DNA from: an uncultured virus (IMG/VR IMGVR_UViG_3300042507_001994)
Lineage: Duplodnaviria > Heunggongvirae > Uroviricota > Caudoviricetes
Virus record (IMG/VR): IMGVR_UViG_3300042507_001994
Reading direction: 5' to 3' (one strand)
Length of the DNA: 64,000 nucleotides
The notes beneath the pieces were generated by a model. It was not told where the DNA came from. It ran no database searches and saw only the letters and a list, made by a program, of their open reading frames with translations. This document shows, one piece after another, positions 1 through 57,419 of the stretch (position 1 is its first letter; each line of letters begins with the position of its first letter). Both the position numbers and the translations under genes were made by a program.

Positions 1-3000
1 AAGGCAGTCCACGATGTTGTGATGCGCTGGGTGGTGGTGCCAATGTTAATGGTGTTGGCACCGGCGGCAGTGCTGCTGATAATCTTGAAGGTGTTGTTGC
101 CACTGATGGTGAGCGTGCCGTTGCCGCCTTGGTTCAGGGTGATGTTGGTGTAGGCTATGTCGCCGCCAGCGAAGGTCTTGGCAGATGCTGAGGTGAGGCT
201 GATGGTGCCGGTGCCGGTGACGGTGAGGTTGGTGGGGGTGGCTGTGAATACAGCGCCAGAACCAGCAAAAGTCCAAGTACCAGAACCAAAAGCAAGGGTT
301 CTTATATTCTGAGAAGTAGAATCAAAATTTGAACCGCTTGTTGTGGTGAAGTTATATGTGTTAGCGTCTAGTGTCCCAGCAGAAAGTGTCAGATTAGCTC
401 CGGTTGAAGTGACAAATGCATCTTGCAAAGTAACCGATCCGCTTGGGCTGTTAATTGTAAATCCCTGTGTGAAAGTCCTGCCGGCATTTGTAATAGTCTG
501 ACCACCGCGCCCAGCAAACGTAATCGTTCCCGTACCAGTCAGCGTCGTCCCTGTACCGTTGACCCAGTTTCCATAAATAGCAGGCGTCGTAGACCCTGTC
601 GCCAGCGTCATCGTATTCGTCGTCCTAGCCGACATGTCGATGGTGCCGATGTTGTAGGACTGGTTGATGGTGACAGTGGCGCCGCTGTTCAGCCCTGTGG
701 CTTCAAAGAAGCAGGTGTCCTGCGCCAATGGGAAGTTGTTTACAGCAGGTGCATCACCACTGTTGAGCGCCCAGCCTGTCGCAGACCAATTGCCGCCAGC
801 AGCAAGGTTCCAATACTTGTGGGCAGCGGCTGTAAACGTGATGCCGCTGTTGCCCTTGCAGTCGCCAATGCGCGTACCGGAGGCTGGCGCAGCAGCACCA
901 GCGATGGTGATGTCGCGGAAGTCAACGTCGGTCATTGACAAGGCGTTAGCCGTAATGGTGCGGGTGGTGCCGATGGTGTCGCTGCGGCAGAAGTGCCGCA
1001 TGGTGGCGTTGGTGCCTGCGGAGAAGGTGAGTGTGCCTGTGACGGTTTGGTTGGCGGATAAAATAACAGGTCTGCACCCGCTAGCAGTTAACCCAGAAAA
1101 AGACAGGTTGTTAAAACTGTTTGTGCCGTTAATAGTTCTGTCAACTGGATTGGTTTGAGTAAAACTAACGTTGTAAAAGGTCTGATTGTTGCCGGAAAAG
1201 TTGGGGCCAATTGCAGATATATTTATTTGCGAAGTTCCTGCCGTGACGGTGAGATTGGCTCGGCTCGTTTCGGTTGTACCAAAATTGATTGGCGTAGACC
1301 CAGATAGAGTAGCCGTCCCTGCACCAAAATCAATTGTTCTGGAATTTGCGCTACTAGAACTTATTGACAACCCTGTATAGTTGTAATTTGCAAAACTGAA
1401 CGTTCCGTTGGTAACGGTTATTCCATTTGATGCTCCTGTATCCAATGCAGAACCCAAGCTCCACGAGCAATCTACGCCATTGACGGTAATGGAAGATGCC
1501 AGCGCAACCCCGTTCGTCGTAAACGTCAGCCCGGTGGAATTGCTCGACAGCGTCATCGCCCCCGTATACGTCCGAGTCAGCCCCGTCGCGGGCAGCGTCA
1601 CATTGCCATGGATACCGTCCATTGCCGTAGAACCCGCCAACGTCACATTCCCCGACGCCGGTCCAGCAATGGTCAACGCCTTCATCCTGATGCCGCCTGT
1701 AACAGCGTTCACTGTGGCTGTGTAGGCTGTCCCATTGCTGCCTGAATCAAACACAACATCATCGTGGCTGCGCGGCACAGAAGCTCCGCTGCCTGTTCCA
1801 GATGTCGTAGACCAGCGTGCTGTGTCGCTCCAGTTGCCTGTGCCACCAACCCAATAGCGCGTGCTGTCAGCAGGCTTGGCTGTGCGATAGACAGGCGCTG
1901 CGGCCGTGCCGGTGCTGTTGGCACCAGCGTAGAACTCACCAGGGCTTGTGGCAGCAAAGCCAATGCTTCCCATAGCAAGGTAGTCAATGCCGCTGGTGCA
2001 GGCTCCTGCGAGGATGTGGGAGGTTCCAGTGCCGGTCAGAGTGACGACGTTTCCAGCAGTGCCAGTCACTGTCCACTTGCCGAAAATCTGGATGGTAGAG
2101 CCTAGAGCAATGGTGTGCGCTACGGTCTTAGTGCTGGCGAGTTCGGTGAATTGATTGTTGCCGGTTATGGTTGTAGTTGATATGCCGGTTGCACCGCCAA
2201 TAGTGAGTTTGTTATAGGAAAAGCTCTCGCCTGCAAACTGCCTGGAATTTGTAGACGTACTAGAGAGAACAATATCTGCTGTATCTTTATAAAAAGTTAT
2301 TCCTGAAATTCTCCACACATTAGTCTCTTGGCTGGAATAGGTGAGTGTCCAAGTACCTGAACCCATTCTCACAACCAGACTCGTGTCTCCACTTGCCTGA
2401 AAGGCTCCAATCGTTACATTGTAAGTTTTTGCGTTAAATTGTCCGTATAAAACCCTAAAAAGCACGCCACTAGTGAATGCGTCTTCTAACTCTATGTTCG
2501 CCCTTATAGAGTTAATTTGTACTGGAATCGGTATAGAGACTCCGTTGGTTTTAATATAGTTTGTTGCGTCGTATGAGGAAATGTTTATAGTATTTGAATT
2601 ACTGGTAATTGTTACACCTGAACCAAAGCGTAAATTTTTGAAGATATTAAATGTGATACTTACCGTTAGTGTCATAGCGGTTGTTCTAGAACCCATTTCT
2701 AGTGTTCCCAACCTAAACACGGCACTTGTAGAAACAGTGCCTGCTGAACCGGCGTCATCAAATACGGCAGTGTCTTGTGCTAATGGAAAATTATTTACAT
2801 TCGGCGTACCACCACTGGAGGTTGCCCATCCCGTAGAGAAGAAAGTCTGTGTGCCGGCCAGATTCCAGTAAAGTGTTTTCGAAGCCGGGAAAACAATACC
2901 AGCGTTGTTTCCGCAATCCCCCGCGTTTGATGGGGCGGTATTGATGGCGGCTCCGGTCAGGTTAATCCCTTCAAAATCACAGTTATCGGCAAGCAGTGTA

Positions 3001-4925
3001 TTGACAGACAGGTTGCACCTGTTGTTTGTAATATGTGGATTAACGTTTCTTATGGCATATCGGTTTCGAAGACTTGTACCAACAACCTGAAACGTCCCTG
3101 TAATGGTGGCGTCCCCAGTAAAGTTTATCAGGTTTGTTCCGTCAACTCCCGGTGCCCTTAGTGTAAGGTTGGCAATTGTGCCGACATTTGTAAACGCGAC
3201 AGATCTATTAGAAACCGAGGACGCGGCCGCGTTCGCTGTTATGTTATAAAACGTGAGCGGCAGACCACAGGTTATAGACAAGTTGGGGTCTTGCGGCAAT
3301 ACAATATTTGACGTTCCGGCATTAAATGTCAAGTTTGTGCTTGTATTAAAGGAGATGCCAACAGTCCCTGATAAGGTAAAGGTGCTCGACCCAAGCGTGA
3401 TCGTCCTGACGTTGCTGTTGTTGGACGACAACGAACTAGCAGTGACGTTGTAGTTCTTGGTGTCGAACGTGCCGTTGGTGACGGTGAGTGCGCCTGTGCC
3501 CGTATTTAAGGCGTCGGCTAATTCGACCGATCCACCATAGGTATCGATGATCAAATCCTGAGCAAACGCTTTTCCGGCGCTTGTAATCGTCTGAGTGTTC
3601 CGTCCGGAAAAGGTCAGAGAACTTGAATACGTCCTTGTAACGCTACTTCCAAACTTCCAATCCCCGTAAACCGTATATGCCGTTGATCCCGCCAGCGTCA
3701 TCGCATTTGTCCGCGTAGACATATCAATGGTGCCGAGAGACGGAAGAGCCGAGTCCAGCGTCACCGTAGCCGACGTATTCAGACCAGTGTTACCAATGAC
3801 AGCCGTGTCCTGAGCAAGCGGGAAGTTGTCTGTACTGACCCCGCCACCGGACGACGCAGCCCAAGCGTTTGCAGACCAGTTTCCACCTGCGGCAAGGTTC
3901 CAATAGACGGATTTAGGCGTGTCAAAGGTGATGCCTCTGCATCCCCTGAGGTCGCCTATCCTGGTGCCGCTGATGGGCGCTGCTGTGCCGATGACGTAGA
4001 TGTCTCTGAAGTCTGCGTCGGTCAGGCTTGGGGCGCTGTTGATGGTGAGGGTTTGGGCGATGCCATAGAGGTCGCCACGGAACCAGACGCGGCGGTTGCC
4101 TGCGGTGCCTGTGGTGGATAGGGTGCCGTTGATGGTTTGACGGGATCTGAAAGATATGGTGCGAACGCCAGCAGATGCCGGCCCAGTGACGGTTAAGTTA
4201 TTGAAAATGTTAGCACCAAGAATTACACTTACTATTGCGCCTGTTCCTGTAAATGAAAAATTATTAAATGTTAACCCTGTTTGAATAACAATGTCACAAA
4301 AAGCTGAGGACGTTGTACATACAATAACTGAAGTCCCGGCATTAAATGTAAGATTTGTTTGTACTGATATACTTATTGGAACAGAGCCTTGAAGTGTTAC
4401 TGTGCTTCCATTCAAACTTATTGTTCTTGTATTTGCATTGCTGGACGAAAGTGCTCCTGCCGTAACAGAATAATTGCTTGCTGATGTCGTGAACGTTCCC
4501 TGCGTGACGGTCAGCGTGTTGCTGCCAATATTCAGCGCATCCCCAAGCGTCACAGTGATGCCGCTGCCGCTAATGGTCACAGAACCAAGCGTCTTGCCTG
4601 CGCTGGTCAGCGTGCCTGTAGCGTTGAACGTGGTAGTACCGGCATAGGTCAGCGTCATGCCAGCGACAAGCGTCAGAGAGCCTGAGATCGTCAGCGCAGG
4701 CGTGGCCGTCCCAGCCAGCGTGGCGGTATAGCCGGTACAGTTGATGGACTTGGCAACGCGGGAACCGGAGATGGTGCAGGTTAACGATGTGCCGTCAAAG
4801 AACACATCGTCTGCCGCCGTAGGCACAGCAGCACCACCGGCCCCACCTACCGTGTCAGCCCACTTGGTGCCTGCTGTACCGTCCCAAACGTCGGTTGCAA
4901 GGCCGCGCCAGAAGCGATCTGCCAC
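1..4925 (-). CDS. Large tail fibre/adhesin-like protein (>1640 aa, 3' end beyond window)
   Basis: GTG at 4925 begins MADRFWRGLATDVWDGTAGTKW; the same frame reads ANTINIGTTTQRITTSWTA at the window start. It is absent from the ORF track, consistent with having no stop in the window. T/G/S/N-rich, with repeated YWNLAAGGNWSA...NFPLAQDT modules. Confidence 0.8.
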   Translation of the reverse strand, partial: MADRFWRGLATDVWDGTAGTKWADTVGGAGGAAVPTAADDVFFDGTSLTCTISGSRVAKSINCTGYTATLAGTATPALTISGSLTLVAGMTLTYAGTTTFNATGTLTSAGKTLGSVTISGSGITVTLGDALNIGSNTLTVTQGTFTTSASNYSVTAGALSSSNANTRTISLNGSTVTLQGSVPISISVQTNLTFNAGTSVIVCTTSSAFCDIVIQTGLTFNNFSFTGTGAIVSVILGANIFNNLTVTGPASAGVRTISFRSRQTINGTLSTTGTAGNRRVWFRGDLYGIAQTLTINSAPSLTDADFRDIYVIGTAAPISGTRIGDLRGCRGITFDTPKSVYWNLAAGGNWSANAWAASSGGGVSTDNFPLAQDTAVIGNTGLNTSATVTLDSALPSLGTIDMSTRTNAMTLAGSTAYTVYGDWKFGSSVTRTYSSSLTFSGRNTQTITSAGKAFAQDLIIDTYGGSVELADALNTGTGALTVTNGTFDTKNYNVTASSLSSNNSNVRTITLGSSTFTLSGTVGISFNTSTNLTFNAGTSNIVLPQDPNLSITCGLPLTFYNITANAAASSVSNRSVAFTNVGTIANLTLRAPGVDGTNLINFTGDATITGTFQVVGTSLRNRYAIRNVNPHITNNRCNLSVNTLLADNCDFEGINLTGAAINTAPSNAGDCGNNAGIVFPASKTLYWNLAGTQTFFSTGWATSSGGTPNVNNFPLAQDTAVFDDAGSAGTVSTSAVFRLGTLEMGSRTTAMTLTVSITFNIFKNLRFGSGVTITSNSNTINISSYDATNYIKTNGVSIPIPVQINSIRANIELEDAFTSGVLFRVLYGQFNAKTYNVTIGAFQASGDTSLVVRMGSGTWTLTYSSQETNVWRISGITFYKDTADIVLSSTSTNSRQFAGESFSYNKLTIGGATGISTTTITGNNQFTELASTKTVAHTIALGSTIQIFGKWTVTGTAGNVVTLTGTGTSHILAGACTSGIDYLAMGSIGFAATSPGEFYAGANSTGTAAAPVYRTAKPADSTRYWVGGTGNWSDTARWSTTSGTGSGASVPRSHDDVVFDSGSNGTAYTATVNAVTGGIRMKALTIAGPASGNVTLAGSTAMDGIHGNVTLPATGLTRTYTGAMTLSSNSTGLTFTTNGVALASSITVNGVDCSWSLGSALDTGASNGITVTNGTFSFANYNYTGLSISSSSANSRTIDFGAGTATLSGSTPINFGTTETSRANLTVTAGTSQINISAIGPNFSGNNQTFYNVSFTQTNPVDRTINGTNSFNNLSFSGLTASGCRPVILSANQTVTGTLTFSAGTNATMRHFCRSDTIGTTRTITANALSMTDVDFRDITIAGAAAPASGTRIGDCKGNSGITFTAAAHKYWNLAAGGNWSATGWALNSGDAPAVNNFPLAQDTCFFEATGLNSGATVTINQSYNIGTIDMSARTTNTMTLATGSTTPAIYGNWVNGTGTTLTGTGTITFAGRGGQTITNAGRTFTQGFTINSPSGSVTLQDAFVTSTGANLTLSAGTLDANTYNFTTTSGSNFDSTSQNIRTLAFGSGTWTFAGSGAVFTATPTNLTVTGTGTISLTSASAKTFAGGDIAYTNITLNQGGNGTLTISGNNTFKIISSTAAGANTINIGTTTQRITTSWTA

Positions 4926-4928
4926 CGT

Positions 4929-5201
4929 TTACACCTTGTAGTACCAGACGCCCTCAACCTCAACGAGCTTGGCGCCGCTCGGAGGAACTCCTTCCAGCTT
5001 CTGGTAGGTTTCGCCAGCAATGTCCAGCGTGGGCGTCTCAGGCTCTACAGGCGGGGCCGTAACGACAGCAATCCAGTTGTCCCGCCGCTGCTCCTTCAGG
5101 GCTTGGATCTCATCCTCCGTGAAGGCGTGATCATCAGGAAGGTGCAGAGCATCTCGGAACACCCCGTGAGGGGTGTCGAACTCGAAGTCGATCTTGATCA
5201 T
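4929..5201 (-). CDS. Hypothetical protein (possible tail-fibre assembly protein)
   Basis: 90-aa ORF tightly packed upstream of the tail fibre. Confidence 0.6.
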   Translation of the reverse strand: MIKIDFEFDTPHGVFRDALHLPDDHAFTEDEIQALKEQRRDNWIAVVTAPPVEPETPTLDIAGETYQKLEGVPPSGAKLVEVEGVWYYKV

Positions 5202-8289: not shown

Positions 8290-9030
8290 TTACCCGATGA
8301 ACATCTGCCTCGGTACGAACCGTACCGCCGCCTTCTCGCGGTCTTCGCTGGAGGCTCGATCCCAATCCTCGTCATACTGCGCCTTCAGAACCTGCATACG
8401 CTCCATGGCGCCAGGGATCTTCATCGACAGGTAGTACGCCAGCCCAGACACGAGGCAGGGCAGGAAGCGGAAAGGGATGTCCTGCGTAGCGGTGCCGCCG
8501 TCTCCAGCATCTTGGATGCGCCGCAAGTACCAGTACACAAACTGATACACGCCCGTCTGATCCGGCGTGGGCCACACGGTGATGCTTGGCAAGGCCGTGG
8601 CGCTGGGGGAGTAGCTGCTTCCGACAGGGTAGGCCGCGCCGGAGTTCCGGTTCACTAGTACCTGGATAGGTCTCGCCTGCTGGAGCTTGTTTGGGATGGA
8701 GGAGTACGTGCTGATGCTGATCCGCGTGATGGTCAGATCAACCTGCGTTGAAACGTTCCCTGCCCCCGTGCGGATGACATGCTCCAGAAGATCCACGGTG
8801 TCTGACGGCAGCGTGTAGGTGTTGGTCCCCTGTACCAGGGGGATCATGCCCTGGTTAAAGGTCCACATGTTTACACCACGGTTCGCCCAATCTGCAAACA
8901 GCAGGTTCAGGGATCGCCGCGCCGTGCGCAGGTCGTAGCCCGTGCGAAGCTCGGATCCGCAGCGTTCAAACGCTTCCTCGACCGCGTCATTGAGGTCGAG
9001 GTTGAACGTGGTAGCTCCTGATGTAGTCAT
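8290..9030 (-). CDS. Putative head-tail connector / tail tubular protein
   Basis: 246 aa, EEAFERCG...ARRSLNLLFADWANRG...WPTPD...PFRFLPCLVSGLAYY. Confidence 0.65.
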   Translation of the reverse strand: MTTSGATTFNLDLNDAVEEAFERCGSELRTGYDLRTARRSLNLLFADWANRGVNMWTFNQGMIPLVQGTNTYTLPSDTVDLLEHVIRTGAGNVSTQVDLTITRISISTYSSIPNKLQQARPIQVLVNRNSGAAYPVGSSYSPSATALPSITVWPTPDQTGVYQFVYWYLRRIQDAGDGGTATQDIPFRFLPCLVSGLAYYLSMKIPGAMERMQVLKAQYDEDWDRASSEDREKAAVRFVPRQMFIG

Positions 9031-10429: not shown

Positions 10430-10430
10430 C

Positions 10431-10850
10431 TCACACCATCCTTCCCTTGGTATGGCCCTTAGTAACACAGCCATCGGCGCGGGTCACCCCACCTTTGGCG
10501 TAGCCCTTGATGCTGCCGCCTTTAGCTTTCCCATCAGCAGGCAAATCAACGGGTTTCCCGTATCCGGCGCGATTGCGAGATGTGCGCCCAGCATACTTTG
10601 TGCCTTTGGGGTACTGATCAGCAACTTGCTGCTCCGCGTCCTCAGCCATTGATTCATACATGTTTTCAATGTGCCGCCTTGCAGCATCAGCCGCTTGGCC
10701 TTGCTTTTTCCCAGCCAAATGCGCTGTTGTCTGCCAAATTCTTGAACTTGGAGACGAGCTTTCTTCTACTTTGTTGCGCAGTTTCCGAGCGCGCTCTGAC
10801 TGCGTTTTTGACGTTTCATTCCATTCACCTGGGCCAGCATAAGTAGCCAT
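10431..10850 (-). CDS. Small basic protein with C-terminal YAKGG...GC...KG motif
   Basis: Last 23 aa identical to those of 10852-11124. Confidence 0.7.
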   Translation of the reverse strand: MATYAGPGEWNETSKTQSERARKLRNKVEESSSPSSRIWQTTAHLAGKKQGQAADAARRHIENMYESMAEDAEQQVADQYPKGTKYAGRTSRNRAGYGKPVDLPADGKAKGGSIKGYAKGGVTRADGCVTKGHTKGRMV

Positions 10851-10851
10851 T

Positions 10852-11124: not shown

Positions 11125-11133
11125 GTTTACTCC

Positions 11134-11698: not shown

Positions 11699-11699
11699 G

Positions 11700-12225: not shown

Positions 12226-12237
12226 GACAGCCTCCTA

Positions 12238-51805: not shown

Positions 51806-52653
51806 CCCGTCGTGGTGTTGGACTGGTTCCCGAACAGCATCTGATACAGAGCCAGCCCGCCGATGCCGCCTTGGGTCAGCGCCCCCAGCAAGGAGTCGCC
51901 TTCACTGTACTTCGGAGCTTCAAGCGGGAGGCCCTGCAAGAGGCTCTGCATGTACGTCGCCTGCTGGTAGGGATACTTCAGAGACTCCTGGAACTGCTGG
52001 TAGCCAAAGTCCAACGGCTGTTGAGCGATGGCCCGCTCTTTCTCGCCCGCAGCCATTTGCTGCTGGAGTGCATCCAGCCCGAACTTGGCGCCGTACTGCT
52101 GCGCCTGCTCGCCGTACTGTTGGGATTTCAGCCCAAGCTCAGACTCGGCAAGACGTTGTTTCTGGGCCTGATCAAACGCAGCCTGCAATCCCTTGATGTT
52201 GATGTCCGAGATCTGTTGACCCAGGTTGCGCTGCCGCTCCGCCTCCATGATCGCCTGTCGGCTACCGCCGTAGGCGCCCGCTTGAGCAAGCCGCGCCTGC
52301 TCCGATTGGCGGCTGATGTCAGCCTGCCTGCGGGCTTCCCGTGCAGCGATGTCAGTGACATTACTCGTATACGGGTTCATGTAGTCTTGAACAGAACCCA
52401 GAGCGCCAAGACCCGTGTTGAACTGCGTTGGGTTGTACGTGCCCAGGTTCTGAAATCCTGTAAACGCGTTCTTTAGCGCATCAGGCGTTGCAGCAAACCG
52501 ATCACCTGTAAACGGCTGGTAGGCTTGATTGGCCGCGCCCCATCCTTTGGACAACATGTCCTGAACATAGGGTCCGAAGCTGGCAGAGAGCGTGGACTGA
52601 CCCGGGGTGATCGCCGGGCTGGTCGTGCCGGTAGTTGTGGTGACATCCATCAC
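51802..52653 (-). CDS. Putative DNA ejection/pilot protein
   Basis: YMNPY...AGAYGGSRQA, Q-rich, G-rich hydrophobic C-terminus. Confidence 0.65.
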   Translation of the reverse strand: MMDVTTTTGTTSPAITPGQSTLSASFGPYVQDMLSKGWGAANQAYQPFTGDRFAATPDALKNAFTGFQNLGTYNPTQFNTGLGALGSVQDYMNPYTSNVTDIAAREARRQADISRQSEQARLAQAGAYGGSRQAIMEAERQRNLGQQISDINIKGLQAAFDQAQKQRLAESELGLKSQQYGEQAQQYGAKFGLDALQQQMAAGEKERAIAQQPLDFGYQQFQESLKYPYQQATYMQSLLQGLPLEAPKYSEGDSLLGALTQGGIGGLALYQMLFGNQSNTTTG

Positions 52654-53402
52654 GCTCTCCTTTGAAGCTGGTTCATCAGCGCGTAGAGTGCCTTGGCGCC
52701 GCCTGCTTGGTTGACTGCACGCTTGGGCACGTAGGCTTCTCCGTTGGACACCCTGGCCGGGGTGTTCCCATCGATTGTCGCAGGGATGTGGTCGCTTGTG
52801 CCAGTCCCCGGGCCCACAATCGGTCGAGCGCCGGGAAGCATTTGAGCAATACCCCTTGGGCCCCCAGCGCCGTCCACCGCCCGCTTGGTCATCACGAAGC
52901 CGCCATCCTCCATGCGAAGAGGGTTCTTGTGGGTGCCTGTGACAGCACCGCCATGGGCATAGGCGTGCATAAGACCGCCTTGGGCAGCGTACTGAGCGAT
53001 GGGCCCGTACTTCCCCTGCACCATGGTGCGGTTCGTCGGAGTGGGAGATGCCACCTGGGTATAACCGCCGCCCGAAGGACTGGCGCGGTTCAGTGCCCCA
53101 AGAAGCGCCATCAGACCCACTGTGCCGCCCATCCCGACGCCGGATCTCATCAGGCTGTTGAACGCCTGCATGGACGGGTTTGAGAGAAACGCCCTGAGAG
53201 GGTCAAGGGCGCTGGCTTGATATGACCCCGCTGCTGTGGGATTGTTGGCACCAGATACGCCGGGGCCTTCTTGCGCGGCGGTTTCTGACATACCGCTGAG
53301 CCACGTATAGGCCGGAGGAATGTCGTACCCCAATGCGGCGTTTACATCCGCATCAGACACACCGGGCAAGTAATAATCTTCAGCGGTGTAATAATCATCC
53401 AT
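52650..53402 (-). CDS. Protein with YAxGG motifs and a tape-measure-type GPGTGTSD..PA..SNGE domain
   Basis: YAAQGG, YAHGG, DGGFVMTKRAV, GPGTGTSDHIPA, SNGEAYVPKRAV. Confidence 0.65.
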   Translation of the reverse strand: MDDYYTAEDYYLPGVSDADVNAALGYDIPPAYTWLSGMSETAAQEGPGVSGANNPTAAGSYQASALDPLRAFLSNPSMQAFNSLMRSGVGMGGTVGLMALLGALNRASPSGGGYTQVASPTPTNRTMVQGKYGPIAQYAAQGGLMHAYAHGGAVTGTHKNPLRMEDGGFVMTKRAVDGAGGPRGIAQMLPGARPIVGPGTGTSDHIPATIDGNTPARVSNGEAYVPKRAVNQAGGAKALYALMNQLQRRA

Positions 53403-53403: not shown

Positions 53404-56073
53404 TCATCCTCCGTAGGGCAATCCATAGGGCGACATTCTCAGCCCTGCTTGAACATCTGCAATGTTGGGCCGATCCTGTTCTTGCTTCTTCTGCTGATTC
53501 ATCATTGCCATCAGCGCGAATAAGCCCTGTAGGTCTCCCATTGGCGAGCGGGTGGGCGCGGGTGGGCGCGGCGCCGGAGCGGGTGCTGGGGCTGGTGCCG
53601 GCGCAGGAGCGGGCGCAGGAGCAGGCGACGGGGCCGCGATGACATTCCCCGCGTAGTCCACGATGTTGCCCGTGGAGGACTCAAGTCCTTGATCTGCGCC
53701 GCCAGGGACGATAGCACCAGGGACGCCATTCAGTTGCTCCAACAGGTCAAAAATTTCCTGCCCATAGTCCCCTTCGGTAGCAGCAGTATCTAGCGTCAGC
53801 GTGCCGCCGTAGGTTGGGTCAAAGACGCTTTCTTGCGTTAGGTCGTAACCTTCATCCACGCTTCCGACGCCACCCTCTGGCGGCAAAGTAGGAAGAATCT
53901 CTTCCAGGATTTGCTCCCACTCGTCCTTTGCTGGTAAACCAGTATCAATGACAGGTCGTTGGGTCGCGACATCTTCATCAATGTACTTGAAGATGTCATC
54001 AAGCGACGGGGGAGGCGGCTCAACAGGAAGTGGTTCCGCAAAGGTCGGCTCTGCAGGAGGCTGCTCAACAACCGGTAATTCAACAAACGGCGGCTCTACA
54101 GGCGGTGGCTCAACAAACGGTGGTTCGGTAAGAAATGGCTCCTCAAACTCAGGAAAAAAGGGCGGCGGCTCAACAGGCGGTGGTTCTGTAAGAAGAGGCT
54201 CTTCAAACTCGGGGAAAATGGGTGGCGGCTCAGCAAGAGGCGGCTCAGCAGGAGCGGGTTCGGTAAGGGGCGGCTCCTCAAACTCGGGGAAAAGGGGTGG
54301 TTCTGCAACAGGCAGCTCTACAGGAGGCGGCTCTGTAAAAAGCGGTTCTTCAAACTCCGGGAATAGCGGCGTCTCTTCAAAGAACGGAGGCTCAACAGGA
54401 GGCGGCTCTACGGGCTCAGGCTCAACAGGCGCCAAGTCGTAAATATTGGGCGTGAAGTATTCCGGCTCGGGCTCGAAGAACGGCGGCGCTGTGACCTCTA
54501 CCGGGGGCTCATCAGACGGAGGTGCTTCTGTTGCTTCGCTGGGTGTCGTGATGTACGGCTCAACGAATTCATCCTTCGGCTGTTGAGTTTCTGGAGTGAA
54601 GATGTCGGGCTCTGCTGGCTCTGTGGGCAGCGTGACCGGCGGATTGATGTTCAGCAGTTCTTCTGCAAGATCTTCAATCGTTCTTTCAGTCTCAAAATCC
54701 CCGCTAAAAACATCTCCTTCACCGCCTGTAAACGCGTCTTCTTCAGACACAACATCGCGTGACGGCTGAACTACATCCAGGGCCCGTGAAGGATCTCTGT
54801 ATGCCTGATCAATAACGGCTTGCTGTTGATTTTCTTCAAGCTGTTGGACAAAGTCAGTAGCCGCCGTGAGCGCCTTCATCGGGTCGATCTTGCCGGAGGT
54901 GCCAAGCTCAACAGCCCCCCGAACAACGCTTGACGGCAGACCCAAAGTCTCACTAGCAGACCCAATAGCGGAGCCTGTCAAACTACCCACGACAGCGTCG
55001 CCAAAGTCCTGCTTGCCGCTAAGCTCCCCCATGATGCCGCTGGTGATGGCACGCTCTGCAGCTTTCTCCAATGGGCCAAGGGATTCAGGCACAAGGCCGC
55101 TAACAACACTGGACACACCTGTGCCGGCCAAGGGCAAAACGCCTGCCTTGGCTACATCGCCCAGGTCACCGCCAGTGATTGCGGACAAGCCCGCATTCAC
55201 AATGCCCTTACCTACCGCAGCCGTTACTGCAGCTTCCGAGACCCCCAATGCGCCTGCAATGCCCTTGGCTGCTTCAGCAGGAAGAAGCGCATTGCCAAGG
55301 GATGAGATTGCCTCTCCCCCGTAGCCAGGGATACCGACGACGGTTGTGGCTACCGGCAGCACAAAGTCCTTAAAGAAGGACTTGATGTCGTCGTCGTCGC
55401 CCGTCTTGGTCTGCGCAACAACCTCTCCAGACGGCAGTTTGAATCCCGTGTAGTTGTTGTAGTTATGGAAATTGCTGCGCTTGGAAACAAAGTCGTAGCC
55501 CTCTGCCCGCTTTTGGTCTACGAACTGCTGCAGTGCCCTTGTGGGATTGCCCTGCATGAAGCCGCCTTCACTATCGTAGCCGACTTCAAACATTTGCCCC
55601 TTGAACCCAAGCTGCGGCGCAACTTGAGCCCAACGGCTGTAATCTACCGGGCCCTGAGACGGCACGCCTCCTTCGTCAGTCTGAACGTAGTCAGGAACCC
55701 ATTCGGAGTAGATCTTTGACGCGGGCTCGTATGCTTGCGTAAACGGCAGTACCGCAGACTCCCAAGAGCCAAACGCTTTCTTGCTGAAAAACGGAGATGC
55801 CTTTTCAAAGCCTTCCAGCACCTTCATTGCATAGCCAAGGCGCTCCTGATCTGATGCCTTGGAAACATCCTCTGGGACGCTGTCGGCTGCGTCGGTGTAG
55901 TCACGAATGACGCGCTGCCCTGAGCCCTTGACATTGGTTCCCCAAGCGTCAAGAACCTTGTCAACCGCTGACTTGACCTTGGGGTCAACCACGCTGCGCT
56001 GCGCCATCAAGGCAGCCGGCATAACCGGCCCGAAGGAGTAGTCGATTGCGGAGTTATCAGGAGCTGTTGTCAT
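53404..56073 (-). CDS. Large acidic Pro/Glu-rich putative internal virion protein
   Basis: 889 aa; G/A-rich hydrophobic middle part, EPP/FPEFEEP repeats, PA repeat. Confidence 0.7.
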   Translation of the reverse strand: MTTAPDNSAIDYSFGPVMPAALMAQRSVVDPKVKSAVDKVLDAWGTNVKGSGQRVIRDYTDAADSVPEDVSKASDQERLGYAMKVLEGFEKASPFFSKKAFGSWESAVLPFTQAYEPASKIYSEWVPDYVQTDEGGVPSQGPVDYSRWAQVAPQLGFKGQMFEVGYDSEGGFMQGNPTRALQQFVDQKRAEGYDFVSKRSNFHNYNNYTGFKLPSGEVVAQTKTGDDDDIKSFFKDFVLPVATTVVGIPGYGGEAISSLGNALLPAEAAKGIAGALGVSEAAVTAAVGKGIVNAGLSAITGGDLGDVAKAGVLPLAGTGVSSVVSGLVPESLGPLEKAAERAITSGIMGELSGKQDFGDAVVGSLTGSAIGSASETLGLPSSVVRGAVELGTSGKIDPMKALTAATDFVQQLEENQQQAVIDQAYRDPSRALDVVQPSRDVVSEEDAFTGGEGDVFSGDFETERTIEDLAEELLNINPPVTLPTEPAEPDIFTPETQQPKDEFVEPYITTPSEATEAPPSDEPPVEVTAPPFFEPEPEYFTPNIYDLAPVEPEPVEPPPVEPPFFEETPLFPEFEEPLFTEPPPVELPVAEPPLFPEFEEPPLTEPAPAEPPLAEPPPIFPEFEEPLLTEPPPVEPPPFFPEFEEPFLTEPPFVEPPPVEPPFVELPVVEQPPAEPTFAEPLPVEPPPPSLDDIFKYIDEDVATQRPVIDTGLPAKDEWEQILEEILPTLPPEGGVGSVDEGYDLTQESVFDPTYGGTLTLDTAATEGDYGQEIFDLLEQLNGVPGAIVPGGADQGLESSTGNIVDYAGNVIAAPSPAPAPAPAPAPAPAPAPAPRPPAPTRSPMGDLQGLFALMAMMNQQKKQEQDRPNIADVQAGLRMSPYGLPYGG

Positions 56074-57419
56074 GTCAGATCCCAGAACGCCATCGTGCCG
56101 ATGGCATCATGCGTGCCGCTCAGTGCGCGAACCGCGATGGTGTAGGTATCGCTTACCCCCGCCAGAGTGGCGCCAAGCTGCAGATCCCAGTTGTAGTCGG
56201 CGCCATTGGCGATTGGTGCAGACGATTGCGTTGATGCCACGACATAGCTTGAGAAGATGATCGTGCCCCCGGTCAGGGCAGTGGCCGACAGGTCTTGCTC
56301 CACATTAGCCGATGGGGACGCTGCCCAAGAGGCGCCGGTCAAGGTGGCATTCTTGATCATCGCCACTTCAAACGTGACGGTTGAGGTCGCGGTTGGCAGC
56401 ACCGAGTACCCGTCCGGGATCACAACCGCCCCCGTTCGTCCAGAAGCCAGCCTGATAGACATCAGAGGCACAAAGTTGACACCAATGTTGGTGTTGGCCG
56501 TCGTCATGCGGACAACGTCAGTAGCCACTCGCTTCTCATAGCCACCCTCAGAAATCACCGTGGAGCAGATCTGCTTGAGCGTAGCCGCAGTGCTGACCCC
56601 AGTGTTGGTGATCTCGTACCTGACCGGCAGGATTGCCGTGGTCATGTAAACGCTGGTCAGGTTGTTGGCGTTTTGGAACGTGTGGCAGATGATGACCTGA
56701 CCGTTGATGACAAACCCAGCCCGGACGGAGCCAACACCAAGCCACTCGAAGTCTTCCCAGAAGATCTGCGCCTTGGTCAAGTCAAGCGTGAAGCCCGAGT
56801 CTCCGGTGCCATTGAGCTTGTCGCCGTTCCAATCGGCCTGGGCCACGCGGGTGTCCACCGCCACCCCCGTGACATACGTCCTGCGGACGATGTACACCGT
56901 GGTGCCGTCGCGCTCCAGGAACACCCCGTTTTCGGTGTTGAAGTAACCAATACGGATGCGTTGGTTCTCGTTTGCCGTGGGCATCACGAAGGTGTTCAGC
57001 ACCAGCAGGCTTTTCCCAGGCTGGTAAGAGAATGACCGATACGTCTGGCGCACAACCTCCGAGCCGCTGCTCGTGGTGACGTTTAACTCAACCGTGCTGG
57101 AGTTGGCGCTGTAGGTCACATTGCCGCCCGTAGCGGTGCTCTCACTGAACAGGTCGTTCTTGGCGTAGCGGTTCTGGCTGTCGAACAGTGTGAAAGGCTG
57201 GCTGAAGCGAGCGCGTCCAAACGCATCCAGCGCGGAGCCGTAGAAATTAACCGCCACTGGGGATGCGCTCACAATCTGCTCCAGGAGGTTGTCAAGCTGG
57301 TTGAAGTAAATCCGCAGAACGCTCAGCAGCTTGTCGAAGTACTGCGGATCGTAGGTGCGCGAGGCGACCGGCAGTGCCGGAGCCTTGAACCGCTTGATGA
57401 TGTTGGCCCAGATACTCAC
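56070..57419 (-). CDS. Putative tail-associated structural protein
   Basis: N-terminal LRIYFNQLD helix fused to a large beta domain (DAFGR...YQPGKS...WLGVGSVR). Confidence 0.6.
   Translation of the reverse strand: MSIWANIIKRFKAPALPVASRTYDPQYFDKLLSVLRIYFNQLDNLLEQIVSASPVAVNFYGSALDAFGRARFSQPFTLFDSQNRYAKNDLFSESTATGGNVTYSANSSTVELNVTTSSGSEVVRQTYRSFSYQPGKSLLVLNTFVMPTANENQRIRIGYFNTENGVFLERDGTTVYIVRRTYVTGVAVDTRVAQADWNGDKLNGTGDSGFTLDLTKAQIFWEDFEWLGVGSVRAGFVINGQVIICHTFQNANNLTSVYMTTAILPVRYEITNTGVSTAATLKQICSTVISEGGYEKRVATDVVRMTTANTNIGVNFVPLMSIRLASGRTGAVVIPDGYSVLPTATSTVTFEVAMIKNATLTGASWAASPSANVEQDLSATALTGGTIIFSSYVVASTQSSAPIANGADYNWDLQLGATLAGVSDTYTIAVRALSGTHDAIGTMAFWDLT

What the first reader, a model, noticed from the sequence alone, without database searches (positions are those of the whole stretch)
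738..56651. Genome-wide over-representation of TGTAAAC/GTTTACA, absent from the accessory region
Seen: by eye I count at least 41 copies on either strand, starting at 738, 831, 3189, 4927, 8869, 9827, 16432, 18388, 19077, 19946, 21140, 21575, 23505, 25852, 26513, 26520, 27052, 27866, 28169, 28919, 29662, 30113, 30990, 31896, 32684, 34347, 35306, 42834, 43965, 44499, 45726, 45986, 47346, 48024, 50207, 51728, 52459, 52507, 53340, 54727 and 56645. A base-composition estimate at ~60% GC predicts only about 4. Most copies lie inside genes, in both orientations, and many are CGTTTACA. They are spaced roughly 1 kb apart in much of the core, and I found none in 35.3-42.8 kb (small ORFs plus methylase). 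Known: GTAAAC/GTTTAC is a subset of GTWWAC, the conserved m6A motif of Burkholderia and Ralstonia. Inference: the phage is selected to accumulate, not avoid, a host-recognised site. It could be a methylation self-mark that licenses escape from defence, or a binding site used in replication, segregation or packaging. Recently acquired DNA would not yet carry it.
Basis: partly seen in the sequence, partly recalled or inferred. Interest (0 to 1): 0.82.

Follow-up and report, generated by a model that had tools for sequence, protein, structure and literature searches.

The report
Selected 8-letter word across a phage genome
A freshwater phage has packed its genome with about 40 copies of the short DNA word TGTAAAC(G), even at the cost of rare codons and amino-acid changes, which points to a genome-wide recognition signal whose reader is still unknown.

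Summary
TGTAAAC/GTTTACA occurs 41 times at exactly the listed positions, against about 3 expected. It survives codon-preserving shuffles (41 vs about 9). The real core is the octamer TGTAAACG (28 of 41).

The window is nearly all of a 65.7-kb freshwater podophage related to HTVC023P-type phages, not a Burkholderia or Ralstonia phage. The GTWWAC reading fails: GTTAAC and GTATAC are not enriched. The phage methylase is a C5 enzyme and is unique to this genome.

Relatives carry shifted versions of the word (GTGTAAAC, the palindrome GTTTAAAC, GCGTTTAC) or none. Sites turn over quickly, with 13 gains to 4 losses. Half the new sites arose through coordinated synonymous changes and half with amino-acid changes. 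Two sister phages are now accumulating words one register apart.

Word presence co-occurs with a three-gene module (SprT-like, AAA+, VWA), and word details follow module type rather than backbone.

Density, top-octamer status, strand symmetry and a gradient from the terminase gene match Chi in phage P1. I read it as a number-selected, Chi-like recognition word. The host could not be tested.

The parts
738..744 (-). TGTAAAC copy (in gene, Val-Asn frame)
831..837 (+). TGTAAACG copy (antisense in gene)
3189..3195 (+). TGTAAACG copy
4927..4933 (-). TGTAAACG copy; its TAA is the stop codon of ORF 4929-5201
8869..8875 (-). TGTAAAC copy; shared with G006, absent in outgroups
9827..9833 (+). TGTAAAC copy
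16432..16438 (+). TGTAAAC copy, intergenic; gain in this lineage
18388..18394 (+). TGTAAACG copy in portal gene; shared with G006
19077..19083 (+). TGTAAACG copy
19946..19952 (+). TGTAAACG copy in TerL; one of the few old sites (also in G004 and G002)
21140..21146 (+). TGTAAACG copy in TerS; shared with G006
21575..21581 (-). TGTAAACG copy in TerS
23505..23511 (-). TGTAAACG copy in AAA+ gene; gain
25852..25858 (+). TGTAAAC copy between AGGAGG and an ATG
26513..26526 (.). two head-to-head copies; with the flanking C (26512) and G (26527) they form the perfect 16-bp palindrome CGTTTACATGTAAACG, which abuts the ATG of ORF 26528-27028
27052..27058 (-). TGTAAACG copy; its TAA is the stop of ORF 27054-27659
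27866..27872 (+). TGTAAACG copy in primase-helicase; shared with G006
28169..28175 (-). TGTAAACG copy in primase-helicase; shared with G006
28919..28925 (-). TGTAAACG copy in primase-helicase; shared with G006
29662..29668 (+). TGTAAACG copy
30113..30119 (+). TGTAAAC copy; shared with G006
30990..30996 (-). TGTAAACG copy in RusA gene; gain with amino-acid change
31896..31902 (-). TGTAAACG copy in exonuclease gene; shared with G006
32684..32690 (-). TGTAAAC copy in Sak gene; synonymous difference from G006
34347..34353 (-). TGTAAACG copy
35306..35312 (+). TGTAAACG copy; last one before the empty accessory region
42834..42840 (-). TGTAAAC copy in giant gene; gain with amino-acid change
43965..43971 (-). 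TGTAAAC copy; synonymous recoding (GCC-GTC-AAC in G006 vs GCT-GTA-AAC here)
44499..44505 (-). TGTAAACG copy; gain
45726..45732 (+). TGTAAACG copy; gain, synonymous
45986..45992 (+). TGTAAAC copy
47346..47352 (-). TGTAAAC copy; shared with G006
48024..48030 (-). TGTAAAC copy; shared with G006
50207..50213 (-). TGTAAAC copy
51728..51734 (+). TGTAAACG copy
52459..52465 (+). TGTAAACG copy
52507..52513 (+). TGTAAACG copy
53340..53346 (-). TGTAAACG copy
54727..54733 (+). TGTAAACG copy
56645..56651 (+). TGTAAACG copy; shared with G006
21913..22551 (+). SprT-like protein with C-terminal zinc ribbon; HExxH degenerated to GSVLH here. First gene of the module that co-occurs with the word
22548..24065 (+). 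AAA_5 (MoxR/CobS-like) ATPase with an unannotated 230-aa N-terminus; second module gene
24067..25815 (+). VWA (CobT-like) protein; third module gene
21035..21706 (-). small terminase gene (probable pac neighbourhood); reference point for the density gradient and the local polarity
35313..42833 (.). motif-free accessory region (small ORFs and a C5 methylase at 40700-42286 that is unique to this genome)
9834..16431 (.). motif-free conserved head-gene block (major head protein 12755-13663)
56652..64000 (.). motif-free tail, lysis and fibre block (the gap continues 9.8 kb round the circle to 738)

Best explanation
TGTAAAC(G) is a cis-acting recognition word kept at high copy number by selection on the DNA itself. 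It most likely works as Chi does in phage P1. It would be a short asymmetric word, on either strand, read by a protein machine that moves along or loads onto the phage chromosome. What matters is how many copies there are and how they are spaced, not where each one sits.

For a circularly permuted, headful-packaged genome, such a word would let whatever processes the DNA ends meet a correctly oriented copy within 1-3 kb. That would switch the machine from degradation to protection or recombination, allowing circularisation and recombination-dependent replication.

Shown here:
- The enrichment is real.
- It is independent of codon usage.
- Sites are being gained continually, at a coding cost.
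- Specificity differs between lineages.
- The word co-occurs with one gene module.

Inferred:
- That the word is read by a tracking or end-processing machine.
It could be the host's RecBCD/AddAB-type enzyme (favoured by precedent) or the phage's own SprT-like/AAA+/VWA module (favoured by co-occurrence and co-variation).
- Headful packaging itself.
For: Selection at DNA level:
- 41 copies vs 3.0 and vs about 9 after codon-preserving shuffles.
- Contexts are Val-Asn 14, Phe-Thr 12, Val-Tyr 5, x-Leu-x 4 and intergenic 6. The word uses rare codons (GTA 133 of 1294 Val codons, TTA 37 of 1473 Leu codons).

Number matters, not position:
- G000 and G006 (78% nt identity over 38 kb) keep 41 and 35 copies.
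- Only 11 of 28 aligned G000 sites are conserved, vs 24% for random 7-mers.
- 13 gains vs 4 losses where outgroups align, and all 6-7 polarisable shared sites are absent from outgroups.
- Of 14 new sites, 7 are purely synonymous and 7 carry an amino-acid change.

- Variants are TGTAAACG (G000), GTGTAAAC (G006), GTTTAAAC with 49 sites vs control 1 plus GTGTAAAC (G002), and GCGTTTAC (L043).
- Sites gained since the G000/G006 split have G before in 5/29 vs 16/23, p=2e-4.

Match to Chi in P1 and LLS (PMC12315714, sections 15 and 18 read; bioRxiv 10.1101/2021.07.08.451572, passages read):
- Most over-represented octamer.
- 1 per 1.56 kb here, vs 1 per 1.9 kb there.
- Both strands: 21:20 here, 31:19 in P1.
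- Near-miss words are also frequent.
- Mosaic blocks lack sites.

Position and spacing:
- Sites are skewed to the half-genome running from TerS away from TerL in all four carriers: 27:14, 22:13, 20:5 and 46:25.
- Within 12 kb on the TerL side of TerS, 14 of 14 sites point toward TerS in G000, G006 and G004, vs 24:32 on the other side.
- Spacing inside dense blocks is more even than random (CV 0.56, P=0.006; no gap under 300 bp vs 5 expected).

Other:
- TerL has a Terminase_6C domain. A concatemeric assembly with a 65,721-bp period and a 285-bp end overlap of the record fit a circular map.
- A palindromic variant that also tolerates GTGTAAAC (G002) fits a reader of a 7-mer on one strand, where the palindrome gives two sites in one.
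Against: - The host is unknown, so the defining test of a Chi-like word (enrichment and skew in the host, and recognition by its nuclease) could not be run.
- The only bacterial genome linked to the group is a Saprospiraceae MAG holding a 1.5-kb TerL contig. It is not enriched (TGTAAAC 625 vs 687; GTTTAAAC 45 vs 163).
- Chi-rich lambdoid phages lack a Rec module. This phage has an exonuclease, Sak and RusA. The motif-less sister clade has the exonuclease and Sak too, so Rec status does not explain who carries the word.
- All known Chi words that I read or recall are G-rich. This one is AT-rich.
- The polarity near TerS was noticed first and tested afterwards. It rests on about 9 independent sites and is not seen for GTGTAAAC in G002 (3:2, with the opposite trend on the other side).
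- The gradient from TerS is confounded with gene class, because gene order is conserved.
- The spacing tests used regions chosen after looking. Genome-wide CV is about 1.
- Headful packaging is inferred, not shown.
Confidence: 0.4

Rival explanations
1. The word is the cis partner of the phage's own three-gene module (SprT-like zinc-ribbon protein, MoxR/CobS-like AAA+ ATPase, VWA/CobT-like protein). Its role would not be Chi-like. For example, copies could act as docking or activation sites that recruit a DNA-dependent remodelling or protein-clearing complex to phage DNA, in the way SprT-family proteases work with AAA+ unfoldases on DNA-bound proteins.
For: Co-occurrence:
- 4 of 4 full-length carriers have the module, and 0 of 2 non-carriers do.
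- Loci spanning the TerS-primase slot: with the module, obs/exp is 7.5-36 (9 loci plus partial ones). Without it, 1.6-1.8 (4 loci: L032, L022, L060, L039).
- 45 of 47 further module-bearing loci of at least 10 kb have a GTTTA-type word as the top 7-mer, across GC 0.47-0.60.
- GC does not explain it: L054 has both at GC 0.50, and L022/L060 have neither at GC 0.50.
- G003 keeps only a 57-aa zinc-ribbon ORF and shows a weak residual signal (GTTTAAAC 6 vs 0.8).

Co-variation that disagrees with the backbone:
- SprT-like and VWA proteins pair G000 with G004 (59%, 56%) and G006 with G002 (53%, 45%). TerL and primase pair G000 with G006 (93%, 90%).
- G before TGTAAAC is 10/41 and 2/25 vs 23/35 and 22/35, p=4.5e-8.
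- Across distinct SprT sequences it is 33/72 vs 160/227, p=2e-4.

Other:
- The fold's best PDB matches are the DNA-bound Spartan SprT domain (6mdw, E=0.02) and the DNA-activated protease CapP (7t5t).
- The 16-bp palindrome lies just downstream of the module.
- The co-assembled P22-like phage has 0 copies in 29.5 kb.
Against: - All module carriers share one backbone. On the quick TerL tree the association rests on about two co-transitions (careful tree not finished, backbone unresolved).
- G000 and G004 also share a similar tail and lysis block (85-92% aa). G006 has different fibres. So module type and host are confounded.
- The AAA+ proteins do not show the G000-G004 / G006-G002 pairing clearly (49% and 39%).
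- Intermediate module types do not fit: L112 has 13/15 G-before although its best reference is G000.
- The protease site is lost in G000 and G004 but intact in G006 and G002.
- No sequence-specific DNA-reading domain was found. MoxR/VWA pairs that I know of are protein chaperones, and the closest solved relatives are CobS, midasin and NorQ.
- PDB fold matches are weak (none at E<=0.001).
Confidence: 0.25
2. No function. The word accumulates through a mutational or gene-conversion drive (for example biased repair or recombination that favours the word), as proposed for uptake sequences, and is merely tolerated.
For: - Gains exceed losses 13:4.
- One-mismatch neighbours are also above expectation (54 copies summed over 24 neighbours of the octamer).
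- Highly conserved, highly expressed head genes and recently exchanged blocks lack it, as expected if purifying selection or short residence opposes a drive.
Against: - Creating a site usually took 2-3 coordinated substitutions including flanks.
- Half the gains change the protein.
- Spacing in dense blocks avoids short gaps.
- A drive still needs a sequence-specific agent, which would itself be the interesting object.
- No Vsr-like or homing enzyme conserved among carriers was found.
Confidence: 0.1
3. The copies are start sites for the phage's T7 gp4-like primase-helicase, spaced about 1 kb apart like Okazaki fragments. They would be needed because the phage appears to lack its own DNA polymerase and relies on a very selective primase.
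For: - A gp4-like primase-helicase with a Cys4 zinc-binding domain is encoded at 27383-29074.
- No DNA polymerase was found among 69 ORFs scanned.
- Spacing is about 1 kb in dense blocks, on both strands.
Against: - The motif-less G005 and G003 have intact primases whose zinc-binding domains are no more divergent than that of the motif-bearing G002.
- G000 and G006 primases are 90% identical, yet their words differ in register.
- Per-strand coverage has gaps of 8.5-13.4 kb (positions).
- Three blocks of 6.6-9.8 kb have no copy on either strand.
- Known primases of this type read 3-5 bases (recalled, not from a call).
Confidence: 0.07
4. One reading: a methylation self-mark. A host (or phage) methyltransferase modifies GTAAAC, and the phage accumulates the site to gain a methylation-dependent benefit such as escape from defence or a methyl-dependent step in replication or packaging.
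For: - GTWWAC is a documented orphan m6A site in Burkholderiales (listing and abstracts only).
- A freshwater Burkholderiales host is not excluded. The co-assembled phage's portal is 41% identical to that of a Rhodoferax phage.
- GTAAAC is part of every TGTAAAC copy.
Against: - The other GTWWAC members are at or below expectation in all four carriers.
- The selected word is longer than the hexamer and asymmetric in its flanks.
- GTTTAAAC, the main word in the largest related clade, is not GTWWAC.
- The phage methylase is C5-type and unique to G000.
- More sites normally means more exposure to a cognate restriction enzyme (general knowledge).
Confidence: 0.07
5. The copies are regulatory sites: half-operators of a phage repressor or regulator (the 16-bp palindrome being the full operator), or a minimal promoter element like T4's late TATAAATA.
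For: - A perfect palindrome of two copies abuts the start codon of ORF 26528-27028.
- In a few cases in G000 and G002 the word sits between a Shine-Dalgarno sequence and the ATG, or directly upstream of a start.
Against: - 35 of 41 copies are inside genes.
- 21 of the 35 genic copies are antisense to the gene.
- No second conserved element lies within 12 bp on either side.
- No sigma factor or RNA polymerase was found.
Confidence: 0.05

Closest known systems
Chi-rich phages: P1 (50 Chi sites) and the lambdoid LLS/MD8 class
   Same: - A single octamer is the most frequent or most over-represented in the genome.
- Density is about 1 per 1.5-1.9 kb.
- The enrichment is not explained by codon usage.
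- Near-miss words are also common.
- Sites come and go between relatives, and mosaic blocks lack them.
- In P1, sites lie on both strands (31:19) and are denser where headful ends fall.
(PMC12315714 sections 15 and 18; bioRxiv 10.1101/2021.07.08.451572 passages; here.)
   Different: - The word is AT-rich and unrelated to any Chi that I read of.
- The host and its nuclease are unknown.
- This phage has its own exonuclease/Sak/RusA module, whereas LLS-class phages lack one.
- The strong one-strand bias of cos phages is absent.
- A palindromic variant exists in relatives.
- Word presence tracks a phage gene module.
DNA uptake sequences (Neisseria DUS, Pasteurellaceae USS)
   Same: - A short word on both strands, mostly inside genes in several frames, at about 1 per kb.
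- More evenly spaced than random.
- Dialects differ between related lineages (DUS/USS properties recalled, not from a call).
   Different: - Those are properties of competent bacterial chromosomes, driven by biased uptake. This is a lytic-looking phage genome.
- No host genome was available.
- An unrelated co-assembled phage has none.
GTWWAC orphan m6A methylation (M.BceJIV and relatives)
   Same: GTAAAC/GTTTAC is one member of GTWWAC (listing and abstracts).
   Different: - Only that member is enriched, and GTTAAC and GTATAC are not.
- Selected flanks extend beyond the hexamer.
- The relatives' main word GTTTAAAC is outside GTWWAC.
Stoperators of cluster A mycobacteriophages (many asymmetric repressor sites per genome)
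   Same: Dozens of copies of one asymmetric site spread over a phage genome and read by a phage-encoded protein (recalled, not from a call).
   Different: Stoperators are 13-14 bp, lie in short intergenic gaps, and have one orientation relative to transcription. Here 35 of 41 copies are inside genes, in both orientations.

Membership tests
Chi-rich phage (P1 / LLS class) | One octamer is the most frequent or most over-represented, beyond what codon usage explains | tested here: met
   Top 7-mer and top 8-mer by order-2 Markov z-score. 41 vs about 9 after codon-preserving shuffles.
Chi-rich phage (P1 / LLS class) | Density of about one site per 2 kb | tested here: met
   41 in 64 kb, or 1 per 1.56 kb. 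About 1 per kb in dense blocks.
Chi-rich phage (P1 / LLS class) | Orientation or position related to the packaging end | tested here: inconclusive
   Overall 21:20. Sites are skewed to the half-genome starting at TerS in 4 of 4 carriers. 14 of 14 sites within 12 kb on the TerL side point to TerS in three genomes but not in G002. This test was post hoc. The position of pac and the packaging direction are unknown.
Chi-rich phage (P1 / LLS class) | Phage lacks its own recombination module and RecBCD inhibitor (lambdoid class) | tested here: not met
   PD-(D/E)XK exonuclease, Sak SSAP and RusA are present. Whether an inhibitor is present is unknown.
Chi-rich phage (P1 / LLS class) | The word is the host's Chi, read by its RecBCD/AddAB and enriched in the host chromosome | not testable with these tools
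   Host unknown. The single bacterial-genome scan found only a 1.5-kb contig in a Saprospiraceae MAG, which is not enriched. Frequent SD motifs (34 of 70 genes) make a Bacteroidota host unlikely.
GTWWAC m6A methylation motif | All GTWWAC members (GTAAAC/GTTTAC, GTTAAC, GTATAC) behave alike | tested here: not met
   G000: GTAAAC 57 vs 12.0, GTTAAC 3 vs 3.8, GTATAC 4 vs 5.9. The pattern is the same in G006 and G004; in G002 GTAAAC itself is only weakly enriched (47 vs 31.8) and GTTAAC and GTATAC sit at expectation.
GTWWAC m6A methylation motif | An N6-adenine methyltransferase of matching specificity is available (phage or host) | tested here: not met
   The phage enzyme is C5-cytosine (PF00145) and is absent from G006, G004 and G002. 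A host enzyme could not be tested.
GTWWAC m6A methylation motif | The adenine in the site is methylated in virion DNA | not testable with these tools
   Only assembled contigs of public runs are held. No kinetic or signal data.
DNA uptake sequence (DUS/USS) | About 1 per kb across the chromosome of a competent host, which takes up DNA bearing the word | not testable with these tools
   No host genome. The unrelated co-assembled phage has 0 copies in 29.5 kb.
Stoperator / operator array | Sites lie in intergenic gaps with one orientation relative to transcription | tested here: not met
   35 of 41 are in genes: 14 sense and 21 antisense.
T7-type primase recognition site | Specificity co-varies with the primase zinc-binding domain, and both template strands are covered | tested here: not met
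   Intact, similar zinc-binding domains occur in motif-less G005 and G003. G000 and G006 primases are 90% identical but use different word registers. Per-strand gaps reach 13.4 kb.
Minimal phage promoter (T4 late TATAAATA type) | Co-oriented with genes, upstream of them, with a phage sigma factor or RNA polymerase | tested here: not met
   Orientation and location as above. No sigma factor or RNA polymerase among PHROG and Pfam hits.

The most novel reading that the evidence does not exclude
The word and the SprT-like/AAA+/VWA module together form a previously undescribed phage system. A phage-encoded complex would read a lineage-specific 8-bp address written about 40-70 times into the phage's own genome. 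It would use that address to tell phage DNA from host DNA and to load an ATP-driven remodelling or protein-clearing machine on it. Module swaps between phages would then be followed by re-writing of the address one register over, as seen between G000 (TGTAAACG) and G006 (GTGTAAAC).
Probability: 0.25. Interest if true: 0.85.

Novelty: new variant of a known kind. Interest (0 to 1): 0.66.

Why it matters
Short words that a genome writes into itself in many copies (Chi, uptake sequences, KOPS) have each revealed a DNA-handling machine. Here an uncultured, widespread group of lake phages shows such a word with unusually clean evolutionary evidence:
- The same backbone carries different dialects.
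- The word is gained again and again at a coding cost.
- Sister phages are drifting one register apart.

My one search on the triad found only one paper holding all four terms, which I did not read.

Either way the claim is directly testable with oligonucleotide binding and recoded genomes.

Tried and rejected
- Maximum-order Markov z-scores miss the word because its sub-words are enriched too. I replaced them with order-2 models.
- The first codon-shuffle script timed out with no output. I re-ran it in faster form.
- The viral-contig scan for the 16-bp palindrome gave 4 loci. Three are the same phage at 99-100% identity, so they are not independent. One is an unrelated AT-rich contig with no enrichment.
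- The megablast of the giant gene against named phages found nothing.
- A distant blastn of the accessory region matched only the widespread phage C5 methylase.
- Relatives cannot be drawn for a virus record. 'of' needs a genome handle.
- Host search:
  - A family search gave no usable control handles.
  - There are no tRNA genes.
- Sequencing runs: 18 runs hold half or more of the stretch's words (17 lake water, 1 subsurface). Ten may be the source sample. The other 8 come from 8 studies. No RNA holder is listed. I did not lay reads, because only contigs are kept for these runs.
- No iteron-like array lies in the TerS-primase slot.
- PADLOC gave no defence-system match for the module apart from a Cas4-like hit for the exonuclease.
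- The protein atlas showed only a CobT-like lead for the VWA N-terminus and nothing for the AAA+ N-terminus.
- G005's GGCAGA (109 vs 42) follows gene orientation and has no flank signature, so I reject it as a replacement signal.
- Flank preference in short partial loci was too noisy to separate module types. Whole genomes were needed.
- Literature:
  - No paper holds TGTAAACG or CGTTTACA as a word.
  - No paper combines bacteriophage, primase recognition and overrepresented.
  - One paper holds phage, CobS, CobT and SprT together; I did not read it.
  - A search on over-represented heptamers in phage genomes gave nothing relevant beyond the Chi preprint.
- Supplementary tables of the two Chi papers and of PMC8022716 (candidate motif lists) were not opened. 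They could contain AT-rich candidate words that I did not see.

Full report
**1. Observation**

The pattern search finds TGTAAAC/GTTTACA 41 times, at exactly the 41 positions listed, 21 on the + strand and 20 on the - strand. 100 dinucleotide-preserving shuffles give a mean of 3.02 (maximum 9).

With an order-2 Markov expectation it is the most over-represented 7-mer (41 vs 2.9). CGTTTACA/TGTAAACG is the most over-represented 8-mer (28 vs 0.8). The base after TGTAAAC is G in 28 copies, A in 10, C in 3 and T in 0. Nothing is conserved beyond about two bases on either side.

A maximum-order Markov test misses the word because its sub-words are enriched too.

**2. What the window is**

- The window's assembly is a single 66,006-bp virus record, and the window covers 64,000 bp of it. 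It differs at 9 positions.
- The record's ends overlap by about 285 bp. A 95-kb IMG/VR contig repeats the sequence with a 65,721-bp period. The map is therefore circular.
- PHROG and Pfam scans identify these genes:

| Coordinates | Gene |
|---|---|
| 21035-21706 | small terminase |
| 19087-20583 | large terminase (Terminase_6C) |
| 16655-19090 | portal |
| 12755-13663 | major head protein |
| 27383-29074 | T7 gp4-like primase-helicase |
| 30807-31307 | RusA |
| 31319-32194 | PD-(D/E)XK exonuclease |
| 32082-32858 | Sak annealing protein |
| 34612-34920 | MazG |
| 40700-42286 | C5-cytosine methylase |
| 42261-50156 | 2631-aa polyvalent virion protein (ART-PolyVal, LPD38) |
| 59574-60101 | endolysin |

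- No RNA polymerase, sigma factor or DNA polymerase was found among the 69 ORFs scanned. There are no tRNA genes.
- The nearest named phages by TerL (48-59% aa identity) are phage 023Pt_psg01, pelagiphages HTVC027P and HTVC023P, lake phage DSL-LC04 and Planktothrix/Synechococcus phages.
- The sequence is held by 18 public runs at half or more of its words: 17 lake water and 1 subsurface. Ten may be the source. The other 8 come from 8 studies.
- About half the genes (34 of 70) have a Shine-Dalgarno-like motif, against a 14% background.

**3. The enrichment is selected at the DNA level**

By my ORF-based gene list, the 41 copies fall in these contexts:

| Context | Copies |
|---|---|
| x-GTA-AAC (Val-Asn), sense | 14 |
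| G-TTT-ACA (Phe-Thr), antisense | 12 |
| GTT-TAC-A (Val-Tyr), antisense | 5 |
| GT-TTA-CA (x-Leu-x), antisense | 4 |
| intergenic or at gene edges | 6 |

In two of the edge copies the TAA inside the word serves as a stop codon.

Shuffling synonymous codons within genes (200 times) gives 9.2 copies on average (max 15). Shuffling codon order gives 8.8 (max 14). About 6 of these are the untouched intergenic copies. The codons used are minor ones (GTA 133 of 1294 Val codons, TTA 37 of 1473 Leu codons).

**4. It is not GTWWAC and not the phage methylase**

- GTWWAC is a documented m6A site in Burkholderia, Ralstonia and Cupriavidus (I saw the search listing and abstracts only).
- Here GTAAAC is 57 vs 12.0 expected, but GTTAAC is 3 vs 3.8 and GTATAC is 4 vs 5.9. 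The pattern is the same in the related carriers G006 and G004; in G002 GTAAAC itself is only weakly enriched (47 vs 31.8) and the two palindromic members sit at expectation.
- The methylase is a C5 enzyme. tblastn finds no homologue of it in any of the five relatives compared.

**5. Relatives carry dialects of the word, or none**

TerL-based retrieval from IMG/VR gave 76 loci. Three loci found through the palindrome are the same phage and do not count as independent. De novo k-mer scans and five complete relatives show:

| Genome | TerL identity | GC | Word |
|---|---|---|---|
| G006 | 93% | 0.575 | TGTAAAC 35 vs 2.8, mostly GTGTAAAC (23) |
| G004 | 81% | 0.572 | TGTAAAC 25 vs 3.2 |
| G002 | 77% | 0.495 | palindrome GTTTAAAC at 49 sites (reversed-word control 1) with Y..R flanks, plus GTGTAAAC 22 vs 1.8 |
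| L043/L042 | 79% | 0.53-0.55 | GCGTTTAC |
| G005 | 81% | 0.50 | TGTAAAC 6 vs 7.9 (none) |
| G003 | 74% | 0.50 | GTTTAAAC 6 vs 0.8 (weak) |
| clades at or below 65% TerL | | | none |

The 29.5-kb tail of the 95-kb contig is a different, P22-like phage joined by the assembly (own portal, terminase, primase and RecT; GC 0.64). It has 0 copies.

**6. Number is conserved, positions are not**

- G000 and G006 align over 38 kb at 78% identity. Of 28 aligned G000 sites, 11 are conserved, against 24% of random aligned 7-mers, and 17 are not. G006 has 13 aligned sites that G000 lacks.
- With G004, G002, G005 and G003 as outgroups, lineage-specific sites are gains 13 times and losses 4 times. None of the 6-7 polarisable sites shared by G000 and G006 is present in an outgroup. 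Only about four sites are older than the G000/G006 split.
- Of 14 G000-only sites in aligned coding DNA, 7 differ from G006 only synonymously. These often involve two or three coordinated changes including the flanking T, as in GCG-GTC-AAC against GCT-GTA-AAC. The other 7 involve an amino-acid difference.

**7. Distribution**

Copies per kb by region:

| Region | Copies per kb |
|---|---|
| 0-16.4 kb | 0.37 |
| 16.4-35.3 kb | 1.11 |
| 35.3-42.8 kb | 0 |
| 42.8-56.7 kb | 1.01 |
| 56.7-65.7 kb | 0 |

- A 7.5-kb gap alone has P=0.29. Three gaps of at least 6.6 kb have P=0.0055.
- The accessory region is poorly conserved and shares 115 nt at 92% identity with the co-assembled phage. The conserved head block is empty too.
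- G004 has all 25 copies in 21-57 kb and none in its 0-21 kb tail/lysis/structural block. Part of that block is 85-92% identical in protein to G000's own empty tail and lysis block.
- Inside dense blocks, spacing is more even than random (16-36 kb: CV 0.56, P=0.006; no gap under 300 bp vs 5.0 expected, P=0.001). These regions were chosen after looking, and genome-wide CV is about 1.

**8. Comparison with Chi-rich phages**

I read sections 15 and 18 and searched passages of PMC12315714, and passages of bioRxiv 10.1101/2021.07.08.451572.

- LLS has 23 Chi sites (1 per 1.86 kb), 20 of them in one orientation. MD8 has 32, all in one orientation. These phages lack Rec modules.
- P1, a headful phage, has 50 Chi sites (1 per 1.9 kb) on both strands (31:19). 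Chi is its most frequent octamer, and it is denser where packaged ends fall downstream of pac.
- Strand symmetry therefore does not exclude a Chi-like role.

In our four carrier genomes, sites are skewed to the half-genome that runs from TerS away from TerL: 27:14, 22:13, 20:5 and 46:25 (P=0.07, 0.015, 0.012 and 0.035). These tests are not independent and are confounded with gene class.

Within 12 kb on the TerL side of TerS, 14 of 14 sites in G000, G006 and G004 point toward TerS, against 24:32 within 24 kb on the other side (Fisher p=0.0001). That amounts to about 9 independent sites, the test was post hoc, and G002's GTGTAAAC does not show the pattern.

Against membership:
- This phage has an exonuclease, Sak and RusA.
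- The motif-less sister clade has the exonuclease (60%) and Sak (53%) as well.
- The word is AT-rich.
- The survey of proteobacterial Chi candidates that I read (PMC8022716, abstract and section 16) reports GCGC-rich candidates. I did not open its supplementary lists.

**9. A gene module that tracks the word**

From G000's gene list, only the block 21913-25815 is present in all four carriers and absent from G005 and G003 (Sak shows the same pattern by tblastn). In those two genomes the slot holds only small ORFs.

Among loci that span the TerS-primase slot:
- Those with the block have TKTAAAC obs/exp of 7.5-36 (L005, L006, L030, L007, L009, L010, L014, L025, L054, plus partial L043, L042, L013, L011, L049).
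- The four without it have 1.6-1.8 (L032, L022, L060, L039).

A further retrieval seeded on the first gene found 399 IMG/VR relatives, of which 80 were fetched and 47 are at least 10 kb long. In 45 of those 47 the top 7-mer is a GTTTA-type word, at GC 0.47-0.60. All of them belong to this same backbone.

The quick TerL tree places the motif-less L022 group beside a 22-row clade in which 16 rows are scored motif-bearing, 6 short loci are ambiguous and none is motif-free (support 83), with other motif-bearing clades outside it. The careful tree did not finish and the backbone is unresolved. The association therefore rests on about two co-transitions.

The three proteins are:
- A SprT-like protein with a zinc ribbon.
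  - Two of the 120 listed homologues carry PF10263, one of them also PF01863.
  - HExxH is intact in G006 and G002, and lost in G000 and G004.
  - The AlphaFold model has pLDDT 88. Its best PDB matches are the Spartan SprT domain 6mdw at E=0.02 and CapP 7t5t, with none at E<=0.001.
- An AAA_5 ATPase closest to CobS, midasin and NorQ.
- A VWA/CobT-like protein.

No PADLOC defence model matches. G003 retains only a 57-aa zinc-ribbon ORF and has the weak residual signal noted above.

**10. Word details follow module type, not backbone**

Pairwise protein identities:

| Protein | G000-G004 | G006-G002 | G000-G006 |
|---|---|---|---|
| SprT-like | 59% | 53% | 44% |
| VWA | 56% | 45% | 35% |
| TerL | 81% | 77% | 93% |
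| primase | 74% | 68% | 90% |

- G precedes TGTAAAC in 10/41 (G000) and 2/25 (G004), against 23/35 (G006) and 22/35 (G002), p=4.5e-8.
- Among sites not shared by the sisters, G precedes in 5/29 (G000) vs 16/23 (G006), p=2e-4. G follows in 20/29 vs 9/23, p=0.049.
- G006, like G002, also shows TTTAAAC enrichment (7 vs 0.9), while G000 has 0.
- Across loci with distinct SprT sequences the contrast is 33/72 vs 160/227, p=2e-4. Intermediate module types do not fit neatly, and short loci are noisy.

Caveats:
- The AAA+ proteins do not show the same pairing.
- G000 and G004 also share a similar tail and lysis block, while G006 has different fibre genes. A difference of host is therefore confounded with the difference of module.

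**11. Other readings tested**

- Primase. All six primases keep the Cys4 zinc-binding domain, and motif-less G005 is as similar as motif-bearing G002. Per-strand gaps reach 13.4 kb.
- Regulatory sites. Most copies are intragenic and half are antisense, though a perfect palindrome of two copies abuts the start of ORF 26528-27028.
- Host imprint. The only linked bacterial genome is not enriched, but its link to this phage is weak.

**12. Verdict**

The GTWWAC/m6A mechanism and the Burkholderia/Ralstonia frame are not supported.

The best reading is a number-selected recognition word that works like Chi in P1. The second option would be a new kind of system. The decisive data are a host genome, binding assays and virion end mapping, all outside these tools.

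Noticed in passing
window 26512-27028: A perfect 16-bp palindrome, CGTTTACATGTAAACG (26512-27), made of two head-to-head copies of the word, directly abuts the ATG of a 166-aa ORF (26528-27028). That ORF has homologues in G006 (59%) and G004 (40%) but not in G002. It could be an autoregulated DNA-binding protein.
   Followed up: partly
G001 (IMGVR_UViG_3300042516_001671), contig 66,200-95,467 = L081:7200-19001 and L082: The 95-kb IMG/VR record is a chimera. It holds one full unit of this phage plus 29.5 kb of an unrelated P22-like phage (GC 0.64; portal 70% identical to phage DSL-LC05). The join lies at window coordinate 5202.
   Followed up: yes
window 20809-20818: TATATATATA followed by a G-run sits in the gap between the small and large terminase genes. 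ATATATA is also among the top words in 14 of the 76 related loci (L007, L010, L011, L013, L021, L023, L025, L038, L050, L052, L055; L107, L108, L178). It may be a promoter or a packaging-related element.
   Followed up: no
window 21913-22551 and homologues: The SprT-like protein has lost its HExxH in this phage (GSVLH) and in G004 (RELAH), but keeps it in G006 and G002 (HELCH). The zinc ribbon is invariant in all of them. G003 keeps a stand-alone 57-aa zinc-ribbon ORF.
   Followed up: partly
window 21913-25815: The three-gene module is a compositional outlier (GC 0.68 vs 0.58 for the genome). It exists in at least two very divergent versions (about 42% aa identity) within backbones whose TerL is 93-100% identical, so it is exchanged between phages.
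   Followed up: partly
window 61681-62697: A tail-fibre-like ORF contains five copies of a repeat of about 138 bp (marker AAAATGCTA at 61830, 61968, 62106, 62247 and 62523).
   Followed up: no
window 2000-4900: The 3' two-thirds of the 1641-aa ORF drops to GC 0.48. It holds four copies of ATTAAATG(T) in related contexts (2646, 3321, 4263, 4341). These look like internal repeats in a probably recently acquired receptor-binding part.
   Followed up: no
window, genome-wide: GTGCCG/CGGCAC is the next most over-represented hexamer (115 vs 44.7). It is also enriched in G006 (105 vs 48.9). It may be a codon-pair effect; I did not examine it.
   Followed up: no
G005 (IMGVR_UViG_3300044636_000374): The motif-less relative has GGCAGA 109 times vs 42 expected (69:40 by strand). 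It follows gene orientation and has no flank signature, so it looks like a codon-pair effect.
   Followed up: yes
G007 contig C273 (Saprospiraceae MAG): A short contig of this MAG holds three GTTTAAAC sites within 1.1 kb, although the MAG as a whole is depleted for the word (45 vs 163). It may be another binned fragment of a phage from this group.
   Followed up: no
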